Source: a virus (taxonomy: Duplodnaviria; Caudoviricetes). Taken from it: a stretch of DNA of 59,309 bases. Below the pieces are notes generated by a model that saw only the letters and a program-made list of their open reading frames with translations, was not told the DNA's origin and did not search any database. Position 1 is the stretch's first letter. Each line of letters opens with the position of its first letter. Shown piece by piece: positions 17,455 through 59,309 of this stretch. The stretch lies in IMG/VR virus record IMGVR_UViG_3300024891_000004, positions 1 to 59,309 of that record. One strand, written 5' to 3'. The position numbers were made by a program, and so were the translations under genes.

Positions 17455-17545
17455 GCATAAGATAGCAAATTGCTAATGCAAATGCAAGCAAAAAGTAATA
17501 GCAATTTGCACATTCATAAAACACTAGCTTTTTGCTATGGTATTG
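17455..17545. promoter_or_regulatory. OR-like immunity region with divergent promoters and operators
   Basis: TAGCA-N3-TGCTA-type palindromes at 17463-17475, ~17499-17510 and 17525-17537; PR-like TTGCAT-17-TATCTT (minus); PRM-like TTCATA-17-TATGGT (plus). Confidence 0.75.
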
Positions 17546-17547
17546 GT

Positions 17548-26985: not shown

Positions 26986-27273
26986 ATGATTAAGTACATC
27001 ACCATTAAAAAGTTTGAAGAACTCACTGGCTACACAGAAGATGCAGTTCGTACTAAAATACGTGACGGCGTATGGCTGCAGAATCAAATCTGGGTAAAAG
27101 CCTACGATGGTCGTGTATTAATGAGTGTTGAGGGGTACAACGAATGGGTAGAAATGGCAGCGGGATCCGCAAAGCGTCAGAAACGAGTTACGAGATCGCC
27201 TTTACCTATCAAGGTGTCAGGTGCAGGGAGCGAATCAAACTCAAGCCCACCCCCACTAACGATAAACGGGTAA
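26986..27273 (+). CDS. xis: Excisionase
   Basis: YITIKKFEELTGYTEDAVRTKIRDGVW...WVKAYDGRVLMSVEGYNEWVE; overlaps int. Confidence 0.85.
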   Translation: MIKYITIKKFEELTGYTEDAVRTKIRDGVWLQNQIWVKAYDGRVLMSVEGYNEWVEMAAGSAKRQKRVTRSPLPIKVSGAGSESNSSPPPLTING

Positions 27274-29913: not shown

Positions 29914-30003
29914 ATGGATAAGCTATTCTTAGTTATAGGCTGGATCATCTTAGGCGGCTTCGCTGCTTACTCTGTTATTCGCCTGCTGTTGTCCTGGCTA
30001 TAA
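29914..30003 (+). CDS. 29-aa hydrophobic peptide, opposite to the late operon
   Basis: MDKLFLVIGWIILGGFAAYSVIRLLLSWL, RBS aaggg; overlaps the giant gene 3' end. Confidence 0.5.
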   Translation: MDKLFLVIGWIILGGFAAYSVIRLLLSWL

Positions 30004-36000: not shown

Positions 36001-39000
36001 CTGCAAGCGCAGTTTCATCATCTTTAAGCGCCTCTTTTAATCCATTGCGCTCAACGTACTGCTCAATTCTTTCTTTTGAGTATTGCGCCTGTGCGGTGAT
36101 GCGTGCTTTTGCAGTTTCCGGTGTTTCCTGTATTTCGCGCATTGAGGTAACGATGGTATGAAAAGCATCAACAATTTCTTTGCGGATGCCGGATTCAGAT
36201 ACGTTTCTATGTTTGCCGATCCATGATGCAAACGGTTCATCGCTGGCGGCAAGCCCTGCCTGTACACCAAAGAAATGATCGAGGCCATGCGCCCATTCGT
36301 GCGCTAAAGAACCTGCGCCTTTTTCTCTCGTCAGATTAATCTCGTTATAGCCAGGATAAAAGTGTGCTGCAAACTTACCTTTACCTTGTGCGCCAATCGC
36401 AAGACCAAGCATTCCATCCAGCGACATTGCTTTCACTGGCATATTTAGCACTTCTGCAAGATCATGAAAAGCATCAAAGGCACTATTAACGTGTGATTGG
36501 CGCTCTTTAGCATTGGATGGTTGTTTCATCCAGTCGCCAAAATTTACCGCTTTCAATCCCACTGCATCCTGCAGTTCTTTTGATGAAACATTGCCATCAG
36601 CACGAAGCTCTCTGCCCTTACGGACGGATTTTTCTACTGGCGTTTCCGGCTCTTTAAAGGCTGCTTCACGCTCACGTTTTACCAATGCTCTGGCGGCTTC
36701 CACGGCTTCATCATGTGTTGCGTGTTCGCTCTTAGGTGAATAGCGACCTTTCTTAATGACTTGGAATTTTCCATCAGCCTCTTTGATCTGATATGAGCGC
36801 TGCCATGCTTCCTGTTTAGCAGGAAAGCCTTGCTGTACCGCCTTCATCGCGTCAATAAAACTGCTTAAATTAAGTTGAATGTTTTTATAAAAGCGATTGC
36901 CGGTTGCATTGGCTTTGTCATTGCCTTCTTTATTCTGCCTGCCCCAACGCGCACCACTTTCATTTTTAGGGAATACACGGTCAACAAAGTAATTTAAGTA
37001 GTTTTCAATATCGGTATCGTTTTCATTTCCGATATTGGCAATATCTATCACTTCATTGCTGTTGAGCATCCATGATTGTTTTTTGGCTTTAACCGCTACG
37101 GCAGTAATCATTCTTGCCATTGCTTGCTTGTCAGACAAAAATTCATCAACCGCTTTTTTAGTTGCTTCGACTACATCCACATAGTCGTACAGCATCTTTT
37201 CGCCTTTATAGGCTGGCTTAGAACTTAACCCATCATAGATTTGTTTAACGATATGTGCGATTGCAGGTTGTACACCGCTATCAACCAACGCCTGATAATC
37301 TGGTCGTTCCCATAGCTTAGTTTTAACCGCCATTGCCACGCGCTCGGTATCATTGTTCGCGTCTTGAATATCTTTAAGCGTTAAGCCTTTGTTGCGGCGG
37401 TTGCCAAGCATTTCAATACCAACATCGGAAGTATCTTTTAATGCTACGGTATCTGCCTTAGTTTCAGGTTTAGGCTGTTCGGATTTAGCTTTACGATTAG
37501 CATCCTCTGCATAAGTCTTAGCAAAGTGATTCTGCTTGCCTTGGGCAAGGCTTTTTAGTACACCCTCTGATACCTTGCCGCCTGATTTTGCGTGCGCTTC
37601 TATTGCTGCATAATGTTCATCTTCCAGTGAACCTTTTACCGATTCAAATTCATCGGCGCTCATTTGAGTTTTAGCAGTAGCTAAATACTCTGGTAATGTT
37701 TGCTCGTATGGCTGTTTTGTTTGTGATTGTTTTATTAATCTTTTATCAGGCTCTTTGCCTTGTTGAATTTCAACCAATGCGTTTTGCAATGCACCTTGAC
37801 GTTTTAATAGATTATTGAACGTTTCATTTACTGGCTTACCTTGCTGTTTTTTCAGTTCATCATTTACAGCATTTAATGCTTCTTGATAAGGCTTGGCTTG
37901 CGCTTCACGTTCTCTACCTAAGTCTGTAGCGGCTTTAGCGTTGCGCTCATTCAGGTCATTTTCTAAGCCAAAATTATATTTAAGTAAGTCAGCCTGTACT
38001 TCTTTTGATAACTGGTCATAAACAGACAATGGGATTTTTTTATCTCTAGGCGTATTCATAACTTCTTTGTTATAAACACTTAATGCCATAGCTTCTGTTG
38101 AACCGTCAGGGTCGCCAGTAGCAGAATTAATCATTGCTTGGCGTTTGTCACCATTGGCTTTATTTAGGTATGCGCTAGAATATTCGTTGCTGTTAAATCT
38201 ATTTTCTAGCCATTGGTCAAAAGTTAGCTTGTATGCTTCTTGTTTTTCTTCAACCTGTGATGTTGCCGATGTTTCAGCCTGTGATGCTTCAATTAAATCC
38301 TGCGCCCCTGCTGCACGCGCCTGTTCAAATTCGCTATCACTACCGCTTAGAGTAAAGGTATCTTGATTGTCTGTGCCAGTATTGCGCTTCGCGTCTTTTG
38401 CGCGTTCTGCATCGACTAGGGCTTGCTTGGCGGCGGTGTTGTCGCCTAAGAGGTCGGTTGGTGATTGAGTTGCAGTATTAAATCTTTCTTCTGCTAATTT
38501 ATACAGGCGATTTAGTTCTGGCAGGGTTTCATTGCGTAGTGCATCCACGGCTTCACGATTAATAAACTCTGATTCAAGTTTATTAATATTAACTTTAGCC
38601 TCGCGTTTTTCTTTTGGTGTTTTTGCAATTTTAAAAGCATATTCAGCTTTTGATAATTTTCCGCTTGCATCAGCGTATAGGTCGTTTGCAAAATTTATTT
38701 TGCGTTCAATTTCCGCAAGTGACCTAACAGATATTGGTATTAGGTTACGCAGTAATGGGTAGTTATTATTTTCGGCATGGCCTTCAACGGCATTTGAGAA
38801 TATGGCAGTAGCATCTACTGGTACGCCTTCATCAATTTGTTTTGCAATCGCTAAACGATCTACATATTGCTGATAAGGATTACGATTTTCTTTTGCAGAT
38901 ACAATGGCATCTTGCAACATTTCACGGAAATCGGATTTTTCTTCATCTGATTTTGCGCTATAAGATGCCTTGAATTTATCTAATTCAGTTTGTTCTTGTG

Positions 39001-42000
39001 GTACTTCCGCTACTTGGCTGGTGTTGCTTCCTTGGCTTTCAGTGTTTGCGCCATCTTGCTGTGCGCGTCCGCTGCCATTTTCAGTGCTGCCAGTTTCAGT
39101 ATCTTGTCCTGCCTGTCCTTCGGTAGCTTGGCTATTTCCTGCATTACCTGTTTCATCATCAAACTCCTCTTTTAACATACGCAGTAATGCGCGTTCAATT
39201 TCTACTTGTGGCTGGCCTTTCATAGATTCAGCCAGTGAAGCGTCAATTTCTGCAAGCGCTTCCGCACCATATTTAGCGGTGGCTTTTGTCACCAGTTCAT
39301 CAAGCAATGCCTGTTCGTCATCGCTTAATTCGCTGATAGCATTAGCATATTCCTCATATTTCTTTTGTGCTAGTGCTTCTTGGCCTTCTGCTGTCAATAC
39401 GTCCATGCCTGACATAGCATCAGCAATCGCATTACCTAAGTCTGCCACGCTTTCACCTACTGGATAACCTTGCTCTTTAAGCAGTTCGCGCATGGTGTCA
39501 GCATCTAGGCCAGTTTTCGTAAAGCTACGTTTAATGCCTGCGCCGTGTTGACGCATATCGGCAGGGTCAATACCAAATTCAGCTTTGGCTTTATCAGCAT
39601 TCAGGCCACCGAGTTTAGCCATTGCCTGCATTAAGCCGTCTTTTGTGGTGTCCAGCTTCATGCGTTCTTCCAGCATGGCCTTGGCTAGTTTGCTTTTCTT
39701 ATCTTTAGCGGCTAACTGCTCTGGTGTGTTCGCAGCCTGGTCATGTAATTGCATCAGAACTTCGCTGAATGCTTTGTTCTTTTTACCGAGTAAATTAGCA
39801 AAGTTCTTGAACTGTTTAGGCGATACTTTCTTGCCTGCCATGAAGTCTTTAGCGGCTTTGAGTGCCGGATCAAAACTAGGGTGCTTGTCTGCTGTAGCGC
39901 GTAGTTTAGTGAGTTGCTCGACTAATGGGCGTACTGTATCGGCAGGTTGTACAGATTCGTTTAACGGTGCGGCTGTTTCAGTATTGACGTTTTTAGGTGT
40001 GATAGCAGTTTCAGCAACCAATGGCTTGAGAATACTAGGAACTACCGGCAGTTGACTGCCAAACAGGTATTCTTCTGCACCATCTTTATCGGCTTGTGAT
40101 AAGTTTTTAAGATTGATCGCCTTGAATTGCGTCAAGTTAAAATCATCGTTGCGTGATTCTGCTTCGGCAATGGCATTATCGACCAGCCATTTATCAACGG
40201 CTTTCAGGCCAAAGTTTGATACCTTGCCATCTTTTCCATTGAATTTTGGGAATGGGGTTGTGGTTCTGCCGGACGCAGTAGTGACGACTTCTTGTGCTGC
40301 CAACATACCGCCGACTTCACCTTTACGCACTTGTACACCATTTGCAGTTTCATCGACACGTTCTGGCAATGTGGTTGTGGTATCGACATTGGTTGCATTT
40401 GTAACACGCTCAAAGCCATTTTCAGTTTTAACATACGGCACACCGCCAACATCGACCTGTTCACCGACTGCTACCTTAGTCATATCAACATCATTGCTTG
40501 TGGCGCTGACAGTTTCTAATGGCTTAGTTGGATCACCGTTTTTCAGCCAATCTTTAAAGGCTGGCGTTGTCAGTTCGGTAACAGATTTGCCGCCATTCCA
40601 ATCATCGGCATAGTTCGATTTGTAGATTGCAATCGCTTCGTCTGCGGTTTCTGCACCTAAAACGGCTTTGTGTTCATCAAAACTACCGTCTTTTTTGGTC
40701 TGGTTGATGACGAATACTTTACCGTTTGCAGGTTTATCACCCACGAATACATCCAGATTATCGCCGTCATTGCCTTTGGTGCGTTTGATGTAACCATAAT
40801 GGTTAGCCAGGGTATTTTCCCAAGCTGCGCCATCTTCATCTACGCCGCTACGGGTAGAACCTTGTGGATTTTCTACGGTAATATTCAGGCCGTCATACTT
40901 GATATGGCCTTTTTTGTAATTACCGGCTGCAGTTTGCGCTTCTGTTGGCTGTGGCAAGTCATTCAGCGGTGAAGTTGCCGCTTGCTGTGCTTGTTCGTCA
41001 ATGATTTGTTTTTCTGCGGCCTGTTCCGGTGCAATGGTTGCCGGTTCTATCGGTGCAATAGCGGTATCAGGCATGACACCATTCTGTTGCGCTTCGACTG
41101 CGTTCAGTGAATCAACGATATTAGGCTTGGCTTCTGTAGCGTCAGGCATGACAGGTTGTGGAGTGAGGCCAACGGCTTGCGCTATGGTTGCAGCGGAAGT
41201 CAGTGAACCTTCTGGGGCTGGTGGTGCTGGTGGTGGTGTAACTTGAGTATTGTCTTTGCCGCCAAAAGCATTCAGTGCGTTTGCACCGCCGCCCATTAAG
41301 CCGCCGGATAATGCGCCCATTGCGGCAGCATTGCCGACACCTTCATCCCAAGTTTTATCCAGTGATAAGTTTTGTGCAATCTGCTCTTGTGCTGATTGTG
41401 GCGCTTCTTCCAGCAAGCCTTCACTAATAACACCGCCTGCAATCGCTTTCGGCAATCCAGTTGCAAGTTGTGCCGGATTAAGTTTGCCTTGTGCCAGCAT
41501 GGTATCAATATCAGCAATACCAAGTTTCTGCGCAATGCTACCACTTGCCGCACTGATTACACCGGTCAACAATCCACTACCGGCCTGAATTGCCGCCTGC
41601 TTACCTGTCAGCAATCCATCTGCGGTTTCCTGTCTTAACTGTTCTGCGTTCTGGCCTGCAGTTACGATACCTTCACCGGCTGCACCGGCAATTACCGGCG
41701 CAAGTTTAGGTGCTACTGTCAACAATCCACGCGCACCGACACCACCCAAGCCCATCACCGGCAATGATTCTGCTGTGGTCTGTGCAATAGTTGACGGATT
41801 TTGCAGTGCGGTCTTGATGGTATTAACAAAACCATCAGCCTCTTGCACTTTCTGATTTGCAAGTTTCTGTTCTGGGCTGTAATAATCACTGATAAACTCT
41901 TTAGCCTGTTTAGGCTTGAAGCCTGCGCTTTCAGCCAGCTTACCGGCATGACCACCGGTTACAAGGTCAGCAAGACCAACTACTGTTTCAGGTACGCCGA

Positions 42001-42157
42001 TTGCGCCTTTTAATAGAGAAACACCGGTGTCGCCTAACGCTCTGCGGATTGTGCCGGATTTTGGCTGTTCAGTATCTAGTTCTGACGCATCAATTTCCGT
42101 TACAGGTGATTCATATCCATCAAGTTCAGACGCATCAATGATGTTGTTTTTCGCCAC
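29975..42157 (-). CDS. Giant polyvalent internal virion/ejection-type protein (4060 aa)
   Basis: Inorganic-pyrophosphatase-like domain (GNYKKGH...YGYIKRTKGNDGDNLDVF), LPD5/LPD1-like (AHEWAHGLD; YWSTPHELFARAFE), two zincin-like motifs (HEVEGH, HESTH), two ART-PolyVal-like domains (FHGSP...GLYF; YHGT...GAYFT), C-terminal LPD38-like region. Confidence 0.85.
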   Translation of the reverse strand: MAKNNIIDASELDGYESPVTEIDASELDTEQPKSGTIRRALGDTGVSLLKGAIGVPETVVGLADLVTGGHAGKLAESAGFKPKQAKEFISDYYSPEQKLANQKVQEADGFVNTIKTALQNPSTIAQTTAESLPVMGLGGVGARGLLTVAPKLAPVIAGAAGEGIVTAGQNAEQLRQETADGLLTGKQAAIQAGSGLLTGVISAASGSIAQKLGIADIDTMLAQGKLNPAQLATGLPKAIAGGVISEGLLEEAPQSAQEQIAQNLSLDKTWDEGVGNAAAMGALSGGLMGGGANALNAFGGKDNTQVTPPPAPPAPEGSLTSAATIAQAVGLTPQPVMPDATEAKPNIVDSLNAVEAQQNGVMPDTAIAPIEPATIAPEQAAEKQIIDEQAQQAATSPLNDLPQPTEAQTAAGNYKKGHIKYDGLNITVENPQGSTRSGVDEDGAAWENTLANHYGYIKRTKGNDGDNLDVFVGDKPANGKVFVINQTKKDGSFDEHKAVLGAETADEAIAIYKSNYADDWNGGKSVTELTTPAFKDWLKNGDPTKPLETVSATSNDVDMTKVAVGEQVDVGGVPYVKTENGFERVTNATNVDTTTTLPERVDETANGVQVRKGEVGGMLAAQEVVTTASGRTTTPFPKFNGKDGKVSNFGLKAVDKWLVDNAIAEAESRNDDFNLTQFKAINLKNLSQADKDGAEEYLFGSQLPVVPSILKPLVAETAITPKNVNTETAAPLNESVQPADTVRPLVEQLTKLRATADKHPSFDPALKAAKDFMAGKKVSPKQFKNFANLLGKKNKAFSEVLMQLHDQAANTPEQLAAKDKKSKLAKAMLEERMKLDTTKDGLMQAMAKLGGLNADKAKAEFGIDPADMRQHGAGIKRSFTKTGLDADTMRELLKEQGYPVGESVADLGNAIADAMSGMDVLTAEGQEALAQKKYEEYANAISELSDDEQALLDELVTKATAKYGAEALAEIDASLAESMKGQPQVEIERALLRMLKEEFDDETGNAGNSQATEGQAGQDTETGSTENGSGRAQQDGANTESQGSNTSQVAEVPQEQTELDKFKASYSAKSDEEKSDFREMLQDAIVSAKENRNPYQQYVDRLAIAKQIDEGVPVDATAIFSNAVEGHAENNNYPLLRNLIPISVRSLAEIERKINFANDLYADASGKLSKAEYAFKIAKTPKEKREAKVNINKLESEFINREAVDALRNETLPELNRLYKLAEERFNTATQSPTDLLGDNTAAKQALVDAERAKDAKRNTGTDNQDTFTLSGSDSEFEQARAAGAQDLIEASQAETSATSQVEEKQEAYKLTFDQWLENRFNSNEYSSAYLNKANGDKRQAMINSATGDPDGSTEAMALSVYNKEVMNTPRDKKIPLSVYDQLSKEVQADLLKYNFGLENDLNERNAKAATDLGREREAQAKPYQEALNAVNDELKKQQGKPVNETFNNLLKRQGALQNALVEIQQGKEPDKRLIKQSQTKQPYEQTLPEYLATAKTQMSADEFESVKGSLEDEHYAAIEAHAKSGGKVSEGVLKSLAQGKQNHFAKTYAEDANRKAKSEQPKPETKADTVALKDTSDVGIEMLGNRRNKGLTLKDIQDANNDTERVAMAVKTKLWERPDYQALVDSGVQPAIAHIVKQIYDGLSSKPAYKGEKMLYDYVDVVEATKKAVDEFLSDKQAMARMITAVAVKAKKQSWMLNSNEVIDIANIGNENDTDIENYLNYFVDRVFPKNESGARWGRQNKEGNDKANATGNRFYKNIQLNLSSFIDAMKAVQQGFPAKQEAWQRSYQIKEADGKFQVIKKGRYSPKSEHATHDEAVEAARALVKREREAAFKEPETPVEKSVRKGRELRADGNVSSKELQDAVGLKAVNFGDWMKQPSNAKERQSHVNSAFDAFHDLAEVLNMPVKAMSLDGMLGLAIGAQGKGKFAAHFYPGYNEINLTREKGAGSLAHEWAHGLDHFFGVQAGLAASDEPFASWIGKHRNVSESGIRKEIVDAFHTIVTSMREIQETPETAKARITAQAQYSKERIEQYVERNGLKEALKDDETALAALDAIISGETGDYAEWPALKGKRKPQGYTSEYVKYIANKLGWNFDRANDLNLTLAGHSAAQEALKADPVLRKIHTEYYRAASILDGGKKDPYWSTPHELFARAFEMYVAEKLANADGRNDYLVSAWKQAEEINTGNAMIDDVLNEAKKRYPQGKEREAINAAFDVLFNEIKTKETDKGIALFASRGNNTDFTAITLDTANTVVSRVLAANKKIWNIDIIAVPTFDALPDDVKNTTTKQYGKDEAKYASGITHNGKVYVIADMNGSEQEAESIILHEVEGHIGIRRLYGTEINKKLNALYLSIGGLKGIKDIAQQRGITQELSNVARQLEKSSFSDDTRIAVMMEEMLAYTAQNPKFSDKAKAIIGMIRAWLREHGFMKLAEYGETDLLNVLREGRSKLNAKVDADGNVIAVMHAAFHGSPHDHDKFEMSKIGTGEGNQSYGYGLYFAGSQKVAEWYKNNLSRGLMIDGKPIDARMLDEYRDNPSGKLAFRLLLSNSNDGSKSAYSDTIEQLEKNISNAKNQSEIELNKDALKIVKGLKSRVSSNNGKLYEVELAPTEDEYLLWDKPLSEQSNTVIAALEKKFSLASFNQDFATAGEFYNSRARKFDSQEKASAELNSLGIRGIKYLDGSSRNKNGRSKYTGDSAYLYAAQDFKENGSNEAEAFNGLKQAYKNAIESDLQDAVNEAYDIQPKQDFNYVIFNEEDIGITAKYSRPQSKFSQKSTGIDIRDLNAVVANVNQALRGLPLTHVLEDYTKAPDELVADIKRDKAYDAAGAWHNGEIYLFRNNIINTNHALFTMLHESTHEGLRRVFGKEIDATLMGIYLSNKDIKQQADALRATHKDLSLVGSVEESLADMGGNGIKASVMDKLVAFLRNFLRRLGMNLTVSDGEVRTLVTRALDSLKSPSKVTHYTIGSAYSAASSGDQTNTPEFKAWFGDSKVVDADGKPLVVYHGTGNSFDTFDTSINGMLGKGAYFTTVFEEAAQFASEKTGIELSGENDYGGDWVGTYIKEVYLNVTDKNDMADSKWGDGKIYVARKPEQIKSATDNNGDFNPKNPDTRYSRPTPRLSPVVQPATPIQQWQTPDKSKLDNVIYMLQNKFVDLKRVIQGIQKAGNSIDDKWNPYLQEELYTGRTATRTKDFIKHELEPLMKSMQARKVDMADFEEYLWARHAEERNIQIAKINPAMQDGGSGMTTQDARDYLANLTPVQSANYQALAAKVDAILKTSRQRLISYGLETPETIAVWEGAYQHYVPLMREDMDNGFGNGSGQGFSVKGNASKRATGSKRAVVDVLANIAQQVERNIIRGEKNRVSTALVGLATLNPNKDFWKVDVVPTMRTVVAGKNTYEVLYNGSVVQTFTNPVEANKFIQWNGAGYTLNIVKGQDLVMDVPDPSYKNRDNVVVARIVNAKGKIEEHFVEFNTHDERAMRAAASIKNLDQDQIGELLGTAASITRYFSSINTQYNPFFGVINILRDVQGSLLNLSSTPLAGKQLDVLKNTPLALKGIYQDIRSERKTGTPTNSYWSLLFEDFQKQGGQTGYRDMFRNAKERGEALKHALDPTWWQQTTAGKIVSINGILAKPEQFLIEAGQKYIFDWLSDYNESMENAVRLSAYKIGLDNGMTKAQAASLAKNISVNFNRKGEMGRQIGSLYAFFNASVQGTARIGETLFTDNNGKLTLSKAGKAIVTGGLLLGVMQALMLAAAGFGDDEPPEFVRDRNLIIPLGNGKAITIAMPLGFNALPAFGRILTEWALSGGEDTSKRFFHIFEMLAEVTNPIGNAGLSMQTITPTMFDPLAALAENEDWTGRPIAKMDFNSQKPTAGHTRAKDTASAISKGLSWVVNEATGGSDYTPGAISPTPDQIDYLLGQIFGGVGREYMKLEQSATSIVTGEELPVYKIPLVGRFYLNAEGQSSQSSRFYDNLKSVFETETELKGLRKDGLDTSEYRANHPEAALVFRANLEQREISQLHKLRSEKLKADASPEEIKALNERITARMLRFNELFIARTTAGE

Positions 42158-51891: not shown

Positions 51892-53421
51892 TTATTCCTT
51901 AGTGAGTTTATGAAAAGCATCCATCACCTGATCAACACTGATATTAGCCTGGCACAAGGCCACGCCGGACGTACCATATTGCGTACAGGTATCGAATGTA
52001 TAGTGCATCTGGTGGCATGGGTAACATGGTGTATGTTCAGGCTCTAGTGCAATCGTGTTTTCCCAATCACGGGTTAAATTGTGTGCGGAACTGTGCGACA
52101 ACAGGACAATCTTGCCATTTGGTTCAAACGCTACGGCATTGAGTAACCCTGTTTCCGAACCGATCACCATATCCGCAACCTGCGCAAATGCCATTGACTG
52201 CCGCATTGTCCATGCACCGGCACGCTTCACTACCCTAGTTTCGCCTTCCCATCCTTGCTGCAGCATTGCTTCATCTGCACCGCCGACCAGTACCACTTTT
52301 AAATCAGGGTACTGTAACAATACCTTGGCAATCACGTCATCCATCCACGGATAAACCTTGTGAATAGCAGAACCGGACAGCGACCATACAACAACATAAC
52401 CGCCTAATACTTCATACTGTTTTTTTGCCCACGCTACTTCATCATCACTGGCATAAAACAGTTGATCATGCGTTGCGTGCCGCAAATCCGCTATATCGTG
52501 TTGAAACTGTAGATAGTTACAATCTAAATACTTGTGGCGCATTTCCTGCGACCAGTTGAATTGTGTCGTATTAGGCAAGGCCAGCAAGCTACGTTCTACT
52601 GATTCAGACAGGTTTACAAACTTGTCGTATTTTTTGGCAAGGTGCGCCCAGAACTGGCCTAATTCATGGTTTGGTACTTGGTCATTGCCTTGCACCACGA
52701 ACTTATCAATATGCGGGTCGTGTTTGGTCACTTCATAACCCTGTGCTGCGGTATAGAACGTGACGTGATAGCCTAGCCGTTTCAGTCCGGCAATCACACT
52801 GGATGCTTGGATTGCGTCACCATAAGCGCCGTACCTGCAAACTGCGGCCTGTGGTTTAGCCCGTGTTTTTAATACATTTAGCTTACTAAAGTCGCCTTTC
52901 CCTGTGCCGCTTTTCCTGTAAACCTGAAAAAAGCTGTATTCATTACCGGCATTGCGTTCTTCATTGACTAATAACGACCAGTTGCCTGTAAGTTTTAGCA
53001 TAGCCTTTTTAATATCTACCGGCATAAAGTCATGTTTATGATCTAGATTAGCGCCAGGCTGTCCAACATTTGGGTAGTATTCTTTATGCGGCAGGTATAG
53101 AATCAGATAGCCGCCATGCTTAATGACGCGCCACCATTCTTTCAGTGCCGCCTCGTAATCCGTAATATGTTCAAGTAAATGCGAACTAAAAATGAAGTCC
53201 ATGCTGTTATCAGCAAAAATGCTCAAATCCTCGCAGGTATCGACCATTACATCGACACCTTGATTGCCCCAATGATGCCCGTTATCGACACCAATAAAAT
53301 GAGGGAAAGTCTTGAATAGACCGCAACCTAAGTCTAGGCCGCGCCCTGCGGTGTATTCAACAATATCCCATTTGATTTTTGCGGCTTCATTACCTTGTGG
53401 TGCTTTAATATCCCAGACCAT
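51892..53421 (-). CDS. SAM methyltransferase fused to a GT9 (heptosyltransferase-like) glycosyltransferase
   Basis: N-terminal LDLGCG...FSSHLLEH...EWWRVIKHGGYL; C-terminal RYGAYGDAIQ...ADMVIGSETGLLNAV...CYPC...C...C. Confidence 0.88.
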   Translation of the reverse strand: MVWDIKAPQGNEAAKIKWDIVEYTAGRGLDLGCGLFKTFPHFIGVDNGHHWGNQGVDVMVDTCEDLSIFADNSMDFIFSSHLLEHITDYEAALKEWWRVIKHGGYLILYLPHKEYYPNVGQPGANLDHKHDFMPVDIKKAMLKLTGNWSLLVNEERNAGNEYSFFQVYRKSGTGKGDFSKLNVLKTRAKPQAAVCRYGAYGDAIQASSVIAGLKRLGYHVTFYTAAQGYEVTKHDPHIDKFVVQGNDQVPNHELGQFWAHLAKKYDKFVNLSESVERSLLALPNTTQFNWSQEMRHKYLDCNYLQFQHDIADLRHATHDQLFYASDDEVAWAKKQYEVLGGYVVVWSLSGSAIHKVYPWMDDVIAKVLLQYPDLKVVLVGGADEAMLQQGWEGETRVVKRAGAWTMRQSMAFAQVADMVIGSETGLLNAVAFEPNGKIVLLSHSSAHNLTRDWENTIALEPEHTPCYPCHQMHYTFDTCTQYGTSGVALCQANISVDQVMDAFHKLTKE

Positions 53422-53478: not shown

Positions 53479-53862
53479 TTAAGCTGTCAAGTCTGAACCT
53501 GGCACAACGTAAGTTTCTACTGCCACTGATAAGGCAATAGATGCGTCAGTACCATGTGCTACCCAGAACTGATCACCTTGCGCTAATGTAATATTGAGCG
53601 CATTGTTTTTAGGTGTAATGGCTGCAGAAGTAATTGCAGACAAGGTAGCGGTTGCGGTTGCTGTACCACTCTTAGTGTACAAAAGCGGCTGCGTCGCTGA
53701 TGTACCGGCGGTATTAACACCCAAAGTAACGGATTTAAGTTTTTGTGCAGTGAATGCCGCAAACTTTTGAGAAACGCCATTTGCGCCTGCTGGTGTACCA
53801 GATGAATAAACAACCGGCACTTGGTAGGCTGGATGGTCGTAGGCTTTATTTTTTACTGTCAT
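53479..53862 (-). CDS. Putative capsid decoration/cement protein
   Basis: 127-aa Thr/Ala-rich beta protein directly after the major capsid gene. Confidence 0.55.
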   Translation of the reverse strand: MTVKNKAYDHPAYQVPVVYSSGTPAGANGVSQKFAAFTAQKLKSVTLGVNTAGTSATQPLLYTKSGTATATATLSAITSAAITPKNNALNITLAQGDQFWVAHGTDASIALSVAVETYVVPGSDLTA

Positions 53863-53967: not shown

Positions 53968-55827
53968 TTAGGTTGCTGAACCCCATTTCACGATACGGGC
54001 TTGTGCTGCTAGGGTATGCACCAGACCGAAGCCACCAAGGTAGTACCATGCAACGCCTTTTGAGCGCCCATAGTCACTAGGGATTTTGCCGCGGATTTCT
54101 TCCGGTACGGCAATGCCTTCTGCCACGGTATCTTCACCGAAGAAGTACGCCCAATTTGACAATCCATTTACCCAAGTTTCCTTGGCAACGTTGGTTTGTT
54201 CAACGAAGCGCACGCCTTCATAGCGACCAATCTCACCGTTCATGATCATGGTGAAGCCGGTTTCAACGTATTGATGCACGGCTTCCAAGTCATTTTTCAA
54301 TGTACGGAAAGTTGATGGATGACCAATCGAAAAGTAGTCATCGTTTTGGTAAGGTGGAATGTTGCGTTCCTTCATTACGTCCACGATAGCTTTGATATGG
54401 TTTTTACCCATTGCTACGTTATTGGTTGCTGGCGGTGTACCGTCAGTTGCCAATGTCACGGCAGTTGTGGAAGTGCCTGATGTTGGTGTCACCACCAATG
54501 GTGTCAATGCAAACTGCGCATAAGCAGCAGCATCGAATGCTTTTTTAGCATCGTTTTTCAGCACTTTGTTGATCACTTCTTTAACTGGGTGCTCTGACAA
54601 GTCATCCAATTTACCTGAATACGGACTTTTTTGTTATCGCATGGCTCTTTATCCATACTTCTAACGCTTTCACGTTAGAGCAGACTATATCATCCCTTTC
54701 GGGTAGCGTACTCTTGGGGCTTTACTGTGTGTTCTACACTCCATGCCCTAGTCGTTGAACCTTCCACTAATCCCTTAGTGGCTCGGCTGCTGATTGCCCA
54801 ATCCAATATCTTTTCAAACATTCACGCTTGCCTTTACAGGCTACGTTGTAGTGCTATTGGCTCTTAGGGGTTTCCAGCAATTCTCGCTATTTTCAAGTTT
54901 ACCTGTTTGTGGTAACATGGAAGTTCTCAACTTAGGAGAACGTCATGTCTATATCTAAAGAACAACTCGCCCGTGTAACTGTTGTTTGCAAATGCGGTTG
55001 TGGCGAATCATTTAGTGCTTTTCCTGTTTACAAAAATAAATCAGAAGGCGGCGGTTTGCGAATCCCTGAATATAAACGAGGTCATCATCCTAATTGTAGA
55101 AAGAAACAATTAAGTGGCGACCCTTGGAATAAAGGGTTACGCAAGGAAACAAATCCTTCTGTTGCCAAGCAAGGCGTTCGCGGTGTGGATCATTTTAATT
55201 ATGATCCTGAACAAAACCCCGATTGGTTTTCTAAAGATTTTGATTTTCGTGCTTTTTCAGAAAAATTTGGCACTAAACTTCGTAGCAAAGGCGGTAATAA
55301 GGCTTACGCTAAGTTTCGCAAAGCGATACTTAAACGTGATAACTATACGTGTCAGCACTGCGGAATATCTGACGATATTGGATTTGATGAAGATTCTTTT
55401 CTTCAAGTTCACCATATCGTTTATATCAAGCATGATAGAACCCGTATTTTTGACCCCACTAACGTTGTTACTCTTTGCTTTAATTGTCATTGGATAACTC
55501 ACAAAAGAAAGTAAGTTGCCGCTCTTAATGAATCAGGACGGAGTTACCGTATTCTGTAATAGTCAGTTCACCTTGAGTGATTGTGAAGTTTGTTTCAGGC
55601 ATTACATCGGTTTCAGCCAGTGCGCCACCTTGAGTAGCTACATCGCTGTACACGTTCCAATGGAACTTGTCGCCTTTACCTTTGCCTTGTTGAGTTGCGT
55701 CTTTTGCATCGCAAAATTGACGGAATTTCACCATTGGTTGTACGGCATTGCGCAAAACCTTTGATAAATTGAGTGAGTACATATAACCGCCTAAGCTGTT
55801 AGTACCCCATACTTGTTGACCTGCCAT
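53968..55827 (-). CDS. Major capsid protein, spliced: exon 1 55827-55538, exon 2 54625-53968 (315 aa)
   Basis: Joining ...TAC GGT AAC TCC GT to T CCG TAT TCA GGT AAA gives EYGNSVPYSGKLDDLS in frame (290+658=948 nt); GEIGRYEGVRFVE capsid motif; follows the scaffold gene. Confidence 0.9.
54891..54940 (+). promoter_or_regulatory. Candidate sigma70 promoter and RBS for the intron HNH gene
   Basis: TTTCAA-16-TAACAT with TGn extension; AGGAG 6 nt before ATG 54945. Confidence 0.5.
54945..55514 (+). CDS. HNH homing endonuclease, antisense within the intron
   Basis: CKCGCG N-terminus, PWNKG (NUMOD-like), RDNYTCQHCG...VHHI...NVVTLCFNCH. Confidence 0.9.
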   Translation: MSISKEQLARVTVVCKCGCGESFSAFPVYKNKSEGGGLRIPEYKRGHHPNCRKKQLSGDPWNKGLRKETNPSVAKQGVRGVDHFNYDPEQNPDWFSKDFDFRAFSEKFGTKLRSKGGNKAYAKFRKAILKRDNYTCQHCGISDDIGFDEDSFLQVHHIVYIKHDRTRIFDPTNVVTLCFNCHWITHKRK

Positions 55828-55852: not shown

Positions 55853-56806
55853 TTAAACGGGTAAGCCACGCGCTTCACGCATCGCACGGATGGTGTCGGA
55901 TGCAGTTGCTTCGCTGTCTGTGGCTGTTTCAGGCACACTTGTTTTCTGGCTGGCGGCTGGCACATGATCAAGGGCGGCTTTACGGGCTTCCCTGTCATTT
56001 GCTGTTACCGTTACGCCCTTGGCTTTCAGCCATTCGCGTGTGGTATCGCCTGCATAGGTCAAGGCTTCATCCAGCGGTTTACCGTCACGCAACGCTTGTG
56101 CGCGATGGGTATCTGCCATTTGAACCAAGAACGGATCAGTCACAACGTCCTGGTAATTGTCGATAAAAGCCTTCATTGCCACGTCATCCTGCATTTTTTG
56201 ACGCGCACGGTCGGCTACTTGGTCAATGTCAAGTTGTGGTTGCGGAATAGCCTGTTGACGTTCCCCCAATAACTTTTTCACCGCCTCTCTGGTTTTTTCT
56301 TCATCGCCTTCGTACAAGGCACTAACTAACTCATTCGCTTGATCGTCCAGTGAGGATGGATTAGCAGTTGGGTTGTTAGGAATTGCACTTAATGCTTCTT
56401 CTCGCTGGCGTAGTTCTGCTTCTTGCCGGTCAAGTTCTGCATTTCTTCGGGCGACTTCATCCAGCCGTTTTGAGGCGGCTGCGTCCTTTTGATAGACACG
56501 CAACGCCTCTGCCGCTGGCATCAGGTGTTCTTGTCCGTCAATCTTGGTGCGCACCTGATAACTGGCAAGTTCATCCTCGGTCAGTACGTGTGGTGCGCTG
56601 GTATTCTCTGCGGCAGGCTCTGGCGCTGCGGCGGCTTCTGATTTTGGCTCGGCTAGTCCTTGTTCGGCTAACTCGGCTTGGATCACTTCATGATTGTTAT
56701 TAGCGAGTTGTTCCATGAAGTCATAACGGGGATTATGTGAAGCCTGCACCCCTGTTTCTGTTTCGTTTTCCAACACGCCCGATTGGGTAGCGTTATTTTT
56801 AGCCAT
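55853..56806 (-). CDS. Capsid scaffolding protein
   Basis: Acidic coiled coil with KIDGQEH motif and basic C-terminus (MREARGL); between portal and capsid; start revised to 56806. Confidence 0.75.
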   Translation of the reverse strand: MAKNNATQSGVLENETETGVQASHNPRYDFMEQLANNNHEVIQAELAEQGLAEPKSEAAAAPEPAAENTSAPHVLTEDELASYQVRTKIDGQEHLMPAAEALRVYQKDAAASKRLDEVARRNAELDRQEAELRQREEALSAIPNNPTANPSSLDDQANELVSALYEGDEEKTREAVKKLLGERQQAIPQPQLDIDQVADRARQKMQDDVAMKAFIDNYQDVVTDPFLVQMADTHRAQALRDGKPLDEALTYAGDTTREWLKAKGVTVTANDREARKAALDHVPAASQKTSVPETATDSEATASDTIRAMREARGLPV

Positions 56807-56819
56807 TGCTTTACTCCAT

Positions 56820-56846
56820 AAAAAAAGCCACCGGTTAAGGTGGCTT
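56820..56846 (-). terminator. Rho-independent terminator
   Basis: AAGCCACC-TTAACC-GGTGGCTT plus T-run. Confidence 0.75.
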
Positions 56847-56872
56847 GGTTGCAACGTAGCTGAATGCTGCGT

Positions 56873-57166
56873 TTATTCCTGTCTATTCATCTGGTCTAGT
56901 TGTTCTTCACTGGATTGGCCTACAATAAAGGCTTCCTTTAGCCATAATTCAAAGTTTTCTGAACGGGCAATAATGCCTTGCAAGGTTCTGATGCGCTCGG
57001 TCTGTGTCGGGGCTATGCTTTTCAGTTCGTCAATGGCCTGAATCGCATCAGCAGCGGCACGGCCTAACAGGTATTTACCCAAATCAGAATTAAAGAAGGC
57101 TTCAACATCAAAGCCCAAAGCGATTTTCTTTTGAATCTCGTTTAGTTCCTGCTGGTTTTGGCTCAT
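56873..57166 (-). CDS. Small head-assembly protein between portal and scaffold
   Basis: 97 aa, FFNSDLGKYL motif typical of post-portal podovirus proteins. Confidence 0.6.
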   Translation of the reverse strand: MSQNQQELNEIQKKIALGFDVEAFFNSDLGKYLLGRAAADAIQAIDELKSIAPTQTERIRTLQGIIARSENFELWLKEAFIVGQSSEEQLDQMNRQE

Positions 57167-59309
57167 TTGCGTTTGGTTTCCATTGAAGTATCAGGCGGTG
57201 TGGAAAATGCTTCGTGTAATGATCTGCTTGCTGGCGTTGATACCGCTTCTTCTACTCGCTTTTGTAAGGTCTTTGCAGGCTCTTGTTTAGGTGCGGCATC
57301 ACGCTGGCGCTGTTCTTCTGCACGCGCTTTCGCACCTGTCATCAGTTCATGCAGGCCGTCTTTAATGCCTTGCACGATACCGCCGTCTGCAAATTGCTGT
57401 GCGCCTTCCACTTCCTGCGCTTCTTCACCGCCCTGCATCTGTCTTAGCAGTAAGCCAAGTTCATTTAGTTTATTCAGTGTATCTTCACCAAGTAAGGCCA
57501 TTGCCTCTACATTCAGCACGCCTTCGCCTGCAGTTGCCATTACTGGAACGTTATCAGCGGTAGTGGTTGGGCTTACGCCTTGTACCGCACCACCATCCGC
57601 TTTGGCCTGCATTGGATTAACGTATTGCTGTTCTTGCTGTAGGTGTAATTGCTGTGCAAAAGCATCGGCATTCATTGGATTATCAAATTTGCCTAAATGC
57701 TGACCTGACTTAACATACTGCTGAATTGCCGCATCGTTATCGAGAATACCGCTGCCATCGCTGGCTACGGTTGGAATCAGCACTTCATACTGACCATCAT
57801 TGAAACTCATGCTGCGCACGGTACTGATAGAACCGTCTGGGTTATTCACAATAGGACGGTTATTCAGGTCGATATTGCCAGGCTCGATAATGCCGCCATC
57901 AGCTAACGCCTGCACACCATCTGCCGCCGCTGTTTCAATGCCGGTCATCGGGCTTGCTGGTACGGCTGGCTGCAATGGCGAAGTGTTCTGGTTAATATCA
58001 GGCATTGGTGTACCCACGGCAGTCGCCGGTACGTCTGTGGCTTGCACGCCATCACCGGCAATCGGTGTCCAGCCTGCGCCTTTCAATACTTCATCAGCTA
58101 CCGGTGCAACGGCTGGTGTTGCCGCTACAATCTGGCCTGTTTGCATCGCGCTAAACTGTGTTTCCACGTTCTTGCTGACTTTCTGTGACTTGATATAGTC
58201 TGCTTCTGCCAGTAGTTTCGCTACGGTAGCATCACGCACTGCCGGATCAAGTTTCGCATCAAGTGCGGCCTGTAATTCCTGCAATTTCTGTTCAAGTTCA
58301 GCCACACGAGGATCGCCATCAGCATCATTAAAGAAGCGCTGACCATCCTTGTAACCCAATTTACCGAAAATTTCCTTGGTGACTTCTTCAACATTGATTT
58401 TTCTGCCAACACTGGAAGCATCAATTTCAGCCAGGGTACGCATACCCATCGTGAAGCGCTCAAACTGTGCCTGCGGATTAGTAGAACCAACGCCCACATT
58501 GACGCGCACCAACATATTGCGCTCTAGTAATTCATCGGTAATGTCAGAAATACCGTATTTTTCGTATAATTTAGCCTTCGTACCGGCAAAAATAAGGATG
58601 GTCTGGTCAGTTTCATACTGTTGTTCCAGCATCACTAACTGTGTAATAACCTTTTCTGCCCATGTTTCCACGAAAGTACGCAGTTGATACTCACTGATCT
58701 CGTTGGCGCTTTCGCTCAATAGCGTCATGCCGCCCACGGTTTCATTCAGTTTGCGGTTGGATTGCACGCTTGAACCATTGAATGCACCGGCTAAGTCGTC
58801 AAAGTCTAGGTTTAAGCGGTCTTGTTCCTGATAGCTAGAACTTGTTACGTCCGGCGTGTCCAATACCTTCACATCGTCAATATCGTTCATCAATGTCACG
58901 GATGACGGTACATTTCTGGTCAGACTGCGAATATCGACCTGCGCATTGCGCTTGGCAAAGTAACGTTTATTCATCGCGAACTTAACGTTATCAATACGCT
59001 GGTTGGCGATTTCGTTAATTTCCACCTGCAGATCGTGTACCAATTCCACCGGTGCGCTGGTATAAGCCTTGTGTGATTCAATCAGGGCACTACCAAGCGC
59101 AAATGGGCGTTTACCGTGCCAATATTGGTCTTTCAGCGGCGCAGGAGTGCTTAAAACGTGTTCTGTACCTAACGTGTAGTACATATGATCCACGCCATCG
59201 ACTTCAATCACGTTGAAATGCACCCAGATAATCTTGTATTCACTCACATCAGTGTTGTTGTCAGTCGGGTCGGTGCGATTACTACCCTGGCGTGTCTGTC
59301 TGATACTGT
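57163..59309 (-). CDS. Portal protein (5' end outside the window) with C-terminal extension
   Basis: RPF...LQVEINEIANQRIDNV...ETVGGM...VNVGVG P22-like portal motifs; frame stays open to the window end. Confidence 0.88.
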   Translation of the reverse strand, partial: SIRQTRQGSNRTDPTDNNTDVSEYKIIWVHFNVIEVDGVDHMYYTLGTEHVLSTPAPLKDQYWHGKRPFALGSALIESHKAYTSAPVELVHDLQVEINEIANQRIDNVKFAMNKRYFAKRNAQVDIRSLTRNVPSSVTLMNDIDDVKVLDTPDVTSSSYQEQDRLNLDFDDLAGAFNGSSVQSNRKLNETVGGMTLLSESANEISEYQLRTFVETWAEKVITQLVMLEQQYETDQTILIFAGTKAKLYEKYGISDITDELLERNMLVRVNVGVGSTNPQAQFERFTMGMRTLAEIDASSVGRKINVEEVTKEIFGKLGYKDGQRFFNDADGDPRVAELEQKLQELQAALDAKLDPAVRDATVAKLLAEADYIKSQKVSKNVETQFSAMQTGQIVAATPAVAPVADEVLKGAGWTPIAGDGVQATDVPATAVGTPMPDINQNTSPLQPAVPASPMTGIETAAADGVQALADGGIIEPGNIDLNNRPIVNNPDGSISTVRSMSFNDGQYEVLIPTVASDGSGILDNDAAIQQYVKSGQHLGKFDNPMNADAFAQQLHLQQEQQYVNPMQAKADGGAVQGVSPTTTADNVPVMATAGEGVLNVEAMALLGEDTLNKLNELGLLLRQMQGGEEAQEVEGAQQFADGGIVQGIKDGLHELMTGAKARAEEQRQRDAAPKQEPAKTLQKRVEEAVSTPASRSLHEAFSTPPDTSMETKRK

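What the first reader, a model, noticed from the sequence alone, without database searches (positions are those of the whole stretch)
54891..55518. Antisense HNH endonuclease in intron loop L2 with its own promoter: possible prophage-expressed weapon against intronless relatives
Seen: the HNH ORF is on the opposite strand to the intron, enclosed by a P2 stem (CAACUUA at 55512-55518 pairing with UAAGUUG at 54928-54934), with an RBS and a candidate extended -10 promoter overlapping the ribozyme core. Established: phage intron endonucleases are usually sense-oriented; antisense ones are best known from nuclear rDNA introns. Inference: expression is uncoupled from the late operon, so it could be made in the lysogen, cutting the intronless capsid allele of superinfecting relatives (homing plus exclusion). 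Its transcript is also antisense to the 5' part of the intron in the capsid pre-mRNA.
Basis: partly seen in the sequence, partly recalled or inferred. Interest (0 to 1): 0.85.

Follow-up and report, generated by a model that had tools for sequence, protein, structure and literature searches.

The report
Phage capsid intron with backward endonuclease
A self-splicing intron that splits a phage's capsid gene carries its DNA-cutting enzyme gene on the opposite strand behind its own bacterial-type promoter, and the same layout recurs in many related environmental phages, so it is a conserved design rather than an accident.

Summary
Observation confirmed, and it extends to relatives. The major capsid gene (minus strand) is split by a 912-nt group I intron (55537..54626; RF00028, 53.7 bits). 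Removing it restores a frame that matches intronless capsids. A 189-aa HNH gene (54945..55514) lies on the plus strand inside the loop closed by P2.

The same layout occurs in every relative examined: L004-L007, L140-L142, and 22 of 22 metagenome loci. In all of them the HNH gene sits antisense between capsid exons. No locus has the intron on the HNH strand.

Sigma-70-like promoters lie at the same place upstream of the HNH start. 12 of 20 loci score at least 9, against 0 of 20 for the reverse complements. The window has TTTTCA-17-TAACAT preceded by TG. L007 has TTGACT-17-TATAAT.

That partner also holds the -35 element and spacer.

The window's phage is temperate (integrase, CI-like repressor). 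However, the relative with the best promoter has no integrase, and no RNA data cover the HNH gene, so the "weapon made in the lysogen" idea is untested.

One precedent is in print: mycobacteriophage LittleE. I judge this a new variant of a known kind.

The parts
55538..55827 (-). Major capsid gene, exon 1. It ends ...AAC UCC GU before the 5' splice site.
   Evidence: ORF. Aligned to the intronless capsid of Vibrio phage D65 and to L060-L063.
54626..55537 (-). Group I intron, 912 nt. A U (55538) precedes the 5' splice site, and the terminal G is at 54626.
   Evidence: RF00028 at 53.7 bits. Joining the exons gives a 315-aa open frame, N S V|P Y S G K, that matches intronless relatives.
53968..54625 (-). 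Major capsid gene, exon 2, including the stop codon.
55525..55527 (-). In-frame stop (UAA) three codons into the intron. It ends translation that runs on from exon 1.
55519..55541 (-). P1. Exon CCGU (55541..55538) pairs with the internal guide GCGG (55522..55519), with a U.G pair at the splice site.
   Evidence: 36 of 36 cells are paired on 9 sequences, and 2 of 4 pairs change on both sides: CCGU/GCGG, CGGU/GCCG, GCGU/GCGC. L007 and L005 have GGGU/GCCC.
55500..55518 (-). P2, 5' strand. [quoted passage not shown]
54894..54911 (-). P2, 3' strand as favoured by comparison (CACAAA.AGGUAA..UUG). On the plus strand it overlaps the -35 element and spacer of the promoter-like site.
   Evidence: The main helix is formed in 90.1% of cells, with 4 of 9 pairs changed on both sides. 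Controls with the partner slid by 1-3 columns give 38-52% for the whole structure.
54945..55514 (+). HNH endonuclease gene, 189 aa, antisense to the intron. It has an N-terminal Cys/His motif (C15, C17, C19, H47) and a C-terminal HNH domain with two CxxC pairs.
   Evidence: The model has pLDDT 82.6, and the best fold match is the phage GVE2 HNH, 5h0m. GC falls to 0.38-0.40 and the AT skew reverses across the gene.
54934..54938 (+). Shine-Dalgarno sequence AGGAG, 6 nt before the ATG.
   Evidence: GGAG-type sequences occupy the same place in relatives.
54890..54918 (+). Promoter-like site: TTTTCA, 17 nt, then TAACAT, with TG at 54910-54911 (extended -10). It ends 26 nt before the ATG.
   Evidence: The consensus scan did not call it. 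My own score is 9.5, and position and strand are conserved in relatives.
54923..54941 (.). Local hairpin GUUCUC/GAGAAC around the Shine-Dalgarno sequence.
   Evidence: A comparable hairpin is matched by at most 5 of 200 shuffles in 6 of 9 close relatives. Neither strand is consistently the more stable.
54661..54890 (-). Ribozyme core (P3-P9), plus a further hairpin down to about 54639. It is 77-79% identical over about 135-145 nt to intron cores of cultured phages.

Best explanation
This is a mobile group I intron in the major capsid gene of a temperate phage. Its homing endonuclease, an HNH enzyme, is encoded on the strand opposite to the intron, inside the long loop closed by helix P2.

Because the capsid (late) transcript cannot encode the enzyme, the element carries its own expression cassette. 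The -35 element and spacer of a sigma-70-type promoter are written into the DNA that also encodes the 3' strand of P2. The -10 element, a short leader, the Shine-Dalgarno sequence and the coding region lie in the loop.

Inferred: host RNA polymerase makes the HNH message independently of late transcription, early in infection or constitutively. The enzyme cuts or nicks the conserved ...TEYGNSVPY... region of intronless capsid alleles in co-infecting or superinfecting relatives. Repair from the intron-bearing copy then spreads the intron together with a short tract of flanking exon.

Shown here:
- the anatomy;
- restoration of the capsid reading frame when the intron is removed;
- covariation in P1 and P2;
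- the antisense layout in all relatives examined;
- conservation of the promoter-like site;
- polymorphism for the intron among close relatives.

Inferred only: transcription, nuclease activity and its target, the timing of expression, and homing itself.
For: Intron and splice sites.

Antisense layout in relatives:
- L004/L006/L007 (identical to one another across the intron) and L005.
- L140-L142.
- All 22 metagenome loci have the HNH gene on the strand opposite to capsid exons.
- RF00028 lies on the opposite strand, abutting the HNH start, in 16 of 22 at the cut-off and in 2 more at 47.2 bits.
- Three loci have too little flanking sequence to test. One (L231) gives no hit.
- No locus has the intron on the HNH strand.

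The protein family is large and intact. There are 89 clusters at E <= 1e-10. The Cys/His and HNH residues are invariant in 47 aligned members.

Promoter:
- The consensus scan calls TTGACT-17-TATAAT (11 of 12) in L007, and TTGATT...TATAGT in L005 and L142, at the homologous place.
- My score is at least 9 in 12 of 20 loci, against 5.6% of random windows (Mann-Whitney p = 5.6e-10).
- It is at least 9 in 0 of 20 reverse complements and in 8.4% of dinucleotide shuffles.
- TGNTANNNT is present in 10 of 20 loci, against 3.3% expected.

The HNH gene is tied to the intron and is dispensable:
- The close intronless relative G002 (capsid 94-100% identical in protein, record 95% complete) has no HNH domain anywhere. 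G000 and G001 each have exactly one, the intronic one.
- 75 of the 80 closest capsid loci join the exons directly at this site.

Signs of mobility:
- One run (X2) holds both an intron-plus contig (54586-55714, 45 differences) and an intronless junction.
- 9 of the 19 positions from -6 to +12 around the junction differ from L062. Over the whole gene the figure is 81 of 948.
- HNH similarity does not track capsid similarity.
Against: - No transcript evidence. The one clear RNA run gave two contigs, neither on the intron or the HNH gene.
- The window's own promoter is weak and was not called by the consensus scan. L141's was not called either.
- The total number of promoter-like sites per region does not exceed what shuffled sequence gives.
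- The loci are related to one another, so the statistics overstate independence.
- The start coordinates were approximate for 3 of the 20 loci (L142, L231, L235).
- The promoter overlaps P2, so RNA-level constraint could contribute to its conservation.
- No terminator follows the HNH gene.
- Nuclease activity and target site are untested.
- The HNH domain most resembles the phage GVE2 HNH and the Geobacter nicking HNH, not a characterised intron endonuclease.
- L142's copy appears to be disrupted by a short tandem duplication.
Confidence: 0.7

Rival explanations
1. In the lysogen, the host polymerase makes the HNH enzyme constitutively from the prophage. The enzyme destroys or converts the intronless capsid allele of superinfecting relatives, giving exclusion plus homing from the prophage.
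For: - The window's phage is temperate: integrase 27144-28334, CI-like repressor 17470-18243.
- The promoter is of the host sigma-70 type, and I recognised no operator at it.
- Intron-plus and intron-minus relatives co-occur.
- Intron endonucleases can act in competition between phages (PhiPA3 gp210, PMC11620839; I saw only the listing and the start of the abstract).
Against: - No RNA data from a lysogen exist. The contig is not an integrated form.
- L007's record (100% complete) carries the same design with the best promoter but has no tyrosine integrase or serine recombinase. The design therefore does not depend on lysogeny.
- The window's promoter is among the weaker ones.
Confidence: 0.2
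2. The promoter-likeness is a by-product of an A/U-rich P2 helix. The HNH gene is silent or decaying, or is expressed only from occasional antisense read-through.
For: - The promoter overlaps the 3' strand of P2.
- The window's site falls below the scan's threshold.
- Counts of promoter-like sites per region are no higher than in shuffles.
- L142's copy looks broken.
Against: - The signal is strand-specific: 12 of 20 against 0 of 20 for the reverse complements of the same windows.
- The -10 hexamer lies outside the P2 pairs, yet it keeps the form TAnnnT with TG in 9 of the 10 short-form loci while its sequence varies.
- The distance from the -10 element to the start codon clusters at 23-31 nt or 5-7 nt in 15 of the 20 loci.
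- The catalytic and zinc-binding residues are invariant in 47 family members down to 35% identity. That would not be expected of an unexpressed gene.
Confidence: 0.1
3. The HNH gene is not this intron's homing enzyme. It is a free-standing or packaging-type HNH (HK97 gp74 / GVE2-like) that happens to be lodged in the intron and acts elsewhere.
For: The best sequence and fold matches of the HNH domain are the phage GVE2 HNH (5h0m) and the Geobacter nicking HNH (4h9d). Its nearest matches among cultured phages are HNH genes of Staphylococcus and Listeria phages.
Against: - In every locus examined the gene lies inside the capsid intron.
- The close intronless relative has no HNH domain at all, so the gene is not needed for packaging.
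- Only the C-terminal domain matches the packaging type (query residues 83-189).
Confidence: 0.05

Closest known systems
I-DirII in the Didymium iridis nuclear rDNA group I intron
   Same: The endonuclease gene is antisense to the intron and its host gene, and it is expressed from its own promoter (PMC3073962, passages read).
   Different: That case is a eukaryotic nuclear rDNA intron. [quoted passage not shown] Here the setting is a phage protein-coding gene, a bacterial sigma-70-type promoter, and an HNH enzyme. I did not check the enzyme family of I-DirII in any call.
Mycobacteriophage LittleE capsid intron with gp14 (Pope et al. 2013, PMC3706429)
   Same: A temperate phage with a group I intron in the major capsid gene. 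The endonuclease gene inside the intron is drawn as transcribed leftwards while the capsid gene runs rightwards. Splicing was shown by RT-PCR (passages and figure legend read).
   Different: The paper describes gp14 as related to the LAGLIDADG enzyme I-CreI, with an HNH-like C-terminus, and as having no close mycobacteriophage relatives. It reports no promoter, no account of the orientation, and no family. I did not fetch the LittleE sequence, so I tested no homology to the present intron or enzyme.
Sense-oriented HNH intron endonucleases of cultured phages (for example the Enterococcus phage fHoEfa06 DNA polymerase intron and the Staphylococcus phage BE28 tail-hydrolase intron)
   Same: A similar ribozyme core (77-79% identity over about 135-170 nt), an HNH gene inside the intron, and an essential phage gene as host.
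   Different: In both HNH-bearing examples I looked at, the HNH gene is on the same strand as the interrupted gene. Two other examples have no annotated ORF across the matched core. I recall, from no call here, that sense-oriented enzymes such as I-TevI depend on the host gene's transcripts or on internal late promoters.
PhiPA3 gp210 intron endonuclease (interference competition)
   Same: An intron-encoded endonuclease in an essential phage gene that harms a co-infecting relative.
   Different: That is a jumbo phage. I saw only the search listing and the start of the abstract, and I did not check orientation or promoter.

Membership tests
Group I self-splicing intron (Rfam RF00028) | Covariance-model match above the curated cut-off | tested here: met
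   53.7 bits against 50, E 3.6e-12, covering model positions 1-253. The model's P1/P2 portion is aligned to local sequence and is not meaningful there.
Group I self-splicing intron (Rfam RF00028) | P1 formed by the end of the 5' exon and an internal guide sequence, with U.G at the splice site | tested here: met
   CCGU/GCGG. 36 of 36 cells are paired in 9 sequences, and 2 of 4 pairs change on both sides.
Group I self-splicing intron (Rfam RF00028) | Terminal G, and precise restoration of the host reading frame | tested here: met
   G at 54626. The joined exons give 315 aa without a stop, collinear with intronless capsids.
Group I self-splicing intron (Rfam RF00028) | Self-splicing activity | not testable with these tools
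   No spliced RNA was seen. The junction-spanning contigs in X2 and X6 carry a relative's codons, so they are intronless DNA alleles.
Intron-encoded HNH homing endonuclease | Intact HNH motif with its metal-binding residues | tested here: met
   Pfam HNH at 7.8e-8. C136, C139, H156, H157, N173, C178, C181 and H182 are invariant in 47 sequences.
Intron-encoded HNH homing endonuclease | Gene lies inside the intron and is inherited with it | tested here: met
   True of all loci examined. The intronless relative has no HNH domain.
Intron-encoded HNH homing endonuclease | Presence/absence polymorphism among close relatives, with a co-conversion tract | tested here: met
   75 of the 80 closest capsid loci are intronless at the site. 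Both alleles occur in run X2. Differences cluster from -6 to +12 around the junction. The tract is suggestive only, because the same codons also occur in some intronless alleles.
Intron-encoded HNH homing endonuclease | Cleaves or nicks the intronless target | not testable with these tools
   Needs a bench assay.
Sigma-70-type promoter driving the HNH gene | -35 and -10 hexamers, or an extended -10, at suitable spacing | tested here: inconclusive
   The window has TTTTCA-17-TAACAT with TG, which is 8 of 12 and was not called by the scan. Relatives: 11 of 12 in L007, and 9 of 12 in L005 and L142.
Sigma-70-type promoter driving the HNH gene | Conserved position and strand across diverged relatives | tested here: met
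Sigma-70-type promoter driving the HNH gene | Mapped transcription start | not testable with these tools
   The runs are kept as contigs only, and none of the RNA contigs lies on the HNH gene.

The most novel reading that the evidence does not exclude
A widespread lineage of phage group I introns has turned its homing endonuclease gene around and written a host-type promoter into the DNA of its own P2 helix. The nuclease is then made whenever host polymerase sees the genome: before late transcription in lytic infection, and continuously from the prophage in temperate members such as this one. In the prophage case it would serve as a standing nuclease against intronless superinfecting relatives, converting them by homing from the prophage. 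Late capsid transcription running the other way would shut it off.
Probability: 0.2. Interest if true: 0.8.

Novelty: new variant of a known kind. Interest (0 to 1): 0.62.

Why it matters
A long-standing problem for mobile introns is how to express a nuclease gene that sits inside a ribozyme without ribosomes unfolding the RNA, and without tying the nuclease to the host gene's timing. The known phage solutions keep the gene in the sense orientation.

This element uses the opposite solution, previously worked out only for one nuclear rDNA intron, and it does so in a compact bacterial form: the same DNA serves as a promoter on one strand and encodes an RNA helix on the other.

The layout is conserved across at least 20 distinct loci and a family of 89 protein clusters. 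That makes it a natural system for three questions:
- whether a late-gene intron can make its nuclease early or in the prophage;
- whether convergent transcription and antisense pairing set the timing;
- whether such introns act in competition between related phages.

It also gives annotators a pattern to look for: antisense HNH genes inside "split" capsid genes.

Tried and rejected
- Whole-intron folding. The minimum-energy fold, with the ORF held unpaired, gave spurious long-range pairs such as exon 1 with the P7 region. I did not use it for the helix map.
- First P2 test. Duplex energies between long segments did not separate the window's P2 from shuffles (456 of 500 shuffles were as good). 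With narrower windows the window was still weak (47 of 400), while 8 of 13 relatives were matched by at most 7 of 400 shuffles. The case for P2 rests on covariation.
Formed in only 57-64% of cells. Kept only as a possible alternative pairing.
- A local hairpin AACUUAC/GUGAGUU just after the guide sequence. By eye it is not conserved in L217 or L220, so I did not adopt it.
- A LexA-box-like CTGT-N8-ACAT over the -10 element. The CTGT is not kept in L223 or L221 (read), so I dropped it.
- The hairpin around the Shine-Dalgarno sequence. It is present in 6 of 9 close relatives, but neither strand is consistently more stable, so I cannot say whether it serves the intron RNA or the HNH message. The idea that it masks the ribosome-binding site in read-through transcripts while promoter-initiated transcripts escape is speculation only.
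- RNA evidence. Run X24 (RNA) gave two contigs, at 52028-52244 and 53509-53745, and nothing on the intron or the HNH gene. Contigs cannot show strand or level, and absence of cover is not evidence. X6 is probably DNA.
- Fold search of the HNH model. No match at E <= 0.001. The best was 5h0m at 5.2e-3, covering only the C-terminal domain. The N-terminal Cys/His domain remains unassigned.
- Literature. Six searches found only LittleE as a phage case of an opposite-strand intron endonuclease. The library lacks most subscription journals. I did not ask for supplementary files, and they may hold more.
- I could not reach the contig behind P0033, which its source names as an HNH endonuclease of Aromatoleum anaerobium on a 716-kb contig.
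Full report
**What is there**

The window is a 59,309-nt viral contig, rated linear and 77% complete. Between 53968 and 55827 the minus strand carries a major capsid gene in two pieces. The N-terminal 96-97 residues and the C-terminal 213-218 residues align end to end with uninterrupted capsid genes of Vibrio phages. They also align with the 80 best IMG/VR relatives.

Comparison with Vibrio phage D65 (...EYGNSVPFTKKLDDL...) places the splice sites as follows:
- the 5' splice site lies after U55538;
- the intron's last base is G54626;
- the intron is 912 nt (55537..54626);
- the joined frame reads ...E Y G N S V|P Y S G K L D D L... and is open for 315 codons.

Rfam's group I model matches the minus strand at 54954..54661 with 53.7 bits (cut-off 50; E 3.6e-12). 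The core is 77-79% identical to intron cores of cultured Staphylococcus, Lactococcus, Bacillus, Aeromonas and Pseudomonas phages. Translation running on from exon 1 stops three codons into the intron, at 55527..55525.

**The HNH gene**

ORF 54945..55514 lies on the plus strand and encodes 189 aa with a Pfam HNH domain (7.8e-8). AGGAG lies 6 nt upstream of its ATG. Across the gene, GC falls to 0.38-0.40 against 0.44-0.55 in the flanks, and the AT skew loses the negative sign typical of the neighbouring minus-strand genes.

The protein belongs to a family of 89 clusters at E <= 1e-10. There is a short form of about 187-208 aa, 49-71% identical to the window's protein, and a long form of about 223-245 aa. 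In 47 aligned members the following are invariant: an N-terminal C15/C17/C19...H47 motif, and the HNH residues C136, C139, H156, H157, N173, C178, C181, H182. A model built from that alignment has a mean pLDDT of 82.6. Its C-terminal domain is nearest to the phage GVE2 HNH (5h0m) and the Geobacter nicking HNH. The N-terminal domain found no match.

**The layout is a family trait**

Searching with the HNH protein brought in the following loci:
- four IMG/VR loci, of which L004, L006 and L007 are identical across the intron, plus L005;
- three genome-collection loci, L140-L142;
- 22 metagenome loci, L217-L238.

In all of them the HNH gene lies on the strand opposite to homologous capsid exons that flank it.

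Among the 22 metagenome loci, RF00028 lies on the opposite strand and abuts the HNH start as follows:
- 16 loci at the curated cut-off;
- L223 and L224 at 47.2 bits;
- L219, L225 and L236 have only 21-170 nt upstream, so they cannot be tested;
- L231 has room for a core but gives no hit.

No locus has an intron on the HNH strand. HNH identity to the window's protein falls to 32% and capsid identity to about 47%, so the arrangement is old. By contrast, of the 80 closest capsid loci:
- 75 join the two exons directly at this site;
- 4 have an intron elsewhere in exon 1;
- 1 lacks exon 1 on its contig.

**Helices**

P1 is CCGU (exon) paired with GCGG (55522..55519). In nine aligned short-form introns all 36 cells pair. 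The pairs covary: CCGU/GCGG, CGGU/GCCG, GCGU/GCGC. L007 and L005 use GGGU/GCCC and GGGGU/GCCCC.

The 3' partner is a different matter:
- The stretch just before P3 (54894-54911; CACAAA, AGGUAA, UUG) pairs in 90% of cells. 4 of the 9 pairs in its main helix change on both sides. Controls with the partner slid by 1-3 columns pair in 38-52% of cells.
- In the long-form introns the same long-range helix is strong: at most 1 of 400 shuffles is as good for L005 and L141.

Either way, the HNH gene occupies the loop closed by P2.

**Promoter**

The consensus scan finds no plus-strand site in the window. At the homologous place in relatives it finds:
- TTGACT-17-TATAAT (11 of 12) in L007;
- TTGATT-18-TATAGT in L005;
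- TTGATT-16-TATAGT in L142.

L141 has TGgTATAAT, which the scan does not count.

I wrote a simple score: hexamer matches, plus 1 for TG, plus 0.5 for a 17-nt spacer. I applied it to the 110 nt upstream of the HNH start in 20 distinct loci.

| Set scored | Share scoring 9 or more |
|---|---|
| Upstream windows | 12 of 20 |
| Random windows from the same loci (n = 3703) | 5.6% |
| Reverse complements of the same upstream windows | 0 of 20 |
| Dinucleotide shuffles of the upstream windows | 8.4% |

The upstream windows differ from the random windows at Mann-Whitney p = 5.6e-10.

The window scores 9.5: TTTTCA, 17 nt, TAACAT, with TG. The motif TGNTANNNT is present in 10 of 20 loci against 3.3% expected. 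Its hexamers vary: TAACAT four times, TATACT twice, and TAAACT, TAAGAT, TATAAT and TAGGCT once each. In 15 of the 20 loci the -10 element ends 23-31 nt before the start codon, or 5-7 nt before it, which would give a leaderless message.

Caveats:
- the loci are related to one another;
- the start coordinates were approximate for L142, L231 and L235;
- the -35 element and spacer overlap the 3' strand of P2.

**Mobility and dispensability**

- The nearest capsid relatives (L062 and L063) are 100% identical to the window in exon 1 protein and 94% in exon 2, yet they have no intron.
- The L062 record (95% complete) has no HNH domain at all. The window and L007's record each have exactly one.
- Against L062, 9 of the 19 positions from -6 to +12 around the junction differ, compared with 81 of 948 over the whole gene. 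This looks like a co-conversion tract. It is not proof, because the same codons also occur in some intronless alleles.
- Run X2 holds both a 1129-nt contig that runs continuously across 54586-55714 (45 differences) and a contig that joins 54612 to 55544 through a relative's codons. X4 holds pieces across the 5' splice site. X6 holds an intronless junction.
- Capsids carrying long-form HNH genes (L233, L234, L238) are 70-73% identical to the window's exon 2. Those carrying short-form genes are 55-64% identical. The intron therefore does not simply follow the capsid's descent.
- Two insertion sites are in use, 8 nt apart. One lies after GGU (L005, L007). The other lies after ..CGU or ..GGU of the Val codon: the window, L141, L142, and the eight short-form loci whose P1 I read.

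**Lifestyle**

The window encodes an integrase (27144-28334), a CI-like repressor (17470-18243) and RecET-like genes, so the phage is temperate. However, terminase (1-1596) and portal (57163-59307) run off the two contig ends while the integrase gene sits in the middle. I infer that the contig is a permuted or circular form, not an integrated prophage. L007's record, rated 100% complete, has no tyrosine integrase or serine recombinase.

**Literature**

- An antisense endonuclease gene with its own promoter is described for I-DirII in Didymium rDNA (PMC3073962, passages).
- For mycobacteriophage LittleE, a temperate phage, a figure legend says that the endonuclease inside the capsid intron is transcribed leftwards. 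The text calls it I-CreI-like with an HNH-like C-terminus (PMC3706429, passages).
- Competition mediated by an intron endonuclease is reported for PhiPA3 (listing and start of abstract only).
- The other papers I opened held nothing on opposite-strand intron endonucleases in phages.
- In four cultured-phage introns with a similar core, the two that carry an HNH gene have it in the sense orientation, and the other two have no ORF across the matched core.

**Verdict**

The mechanism I consider most likely is a homing intron whose nuclease is expressed from a host-type promoter embedded in P2, independently of late transcription. Expression in the lysogen, and use as a weapon, remain possible for temperate members but are untested. 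I class it as a new variant of a known kind.

Noticed in passing
window 29975-42157 (-): A 4060-aa ORF. It matches several giant phage protein families of unknown function, and also entries named DarB-like antirestriction, minor head protein and endolysin. It is probably a giant multidomain virion protein.
   Followed up: partly
L005/L140 1819-2111; L226 1355-1603; L237 1398-1617; L225 1286-1565; L106, L107, L119 2225-2450; L125 2017-2298: Capsid genes of this phage group often carry further group I introns at other positions. Some have two or three in one gene, mostly without an ORF. In L234 and L238 exon 1 is also split.
   Followed up: partly
L005 and L007 versus the window, L141 and L142: Related antisense-HNH introns use two insertion sites 8 nt apart in the same conserved capsid codons, each with a matching guide sequence.
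   Followed up: partly
L142 about 2950-3060: A tandem duplication of about 29 nt near the start of the HNH gene puts the ATG out of frame with the rest. This is either a decaying copy or an assembly error.
   Followed up: no
L007 3689..3671; L005 3746..3728; L141 3689..3672; L142 3737..3720 (minus strand): The P1 hairpin followed by the U-rich 5' strand of P2 is flagged as terminator-like on the capsid strand in four relatives. It is not flagged in the window, where the P1 loop is longer.
   Followed up: no
window 56623-57024: In run X6, contigs of very high depth (712-2976, against 3-8 elsewhere) cover this stretch and carry an extra C after 56830. The stretch includes a terminator-like hairpin at 56846..56825. 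Something abundant in that sample shares this segment. Unexplained.
   Followed up: no
window 52028-52244 and 53509-53745: Two contigs of a sediment metatranscriptome run (X24) match the window with no differences, in the 509-aa gene and in the 127-aa gene downstream of the capsid gene. DNA carry-over is not excluded.
   Followed up: no
window 51892-53421 (-): A 509-aa ORF with a methyltransferase-like N-terminal part. A homologous ORF lies at the start of L005 (3..821), downstream of the capsid gene there too.
   Followed up: no
window 54899-54915: An imperfect dyad, TTACC-N7-GGTAA, spans the promoter spacer. In the RNA it would form a hairpin that competes with P2. Changes in L230 and L227 are compensated in P2 but not in this hairpin (read by eye).
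   Followed up: partly
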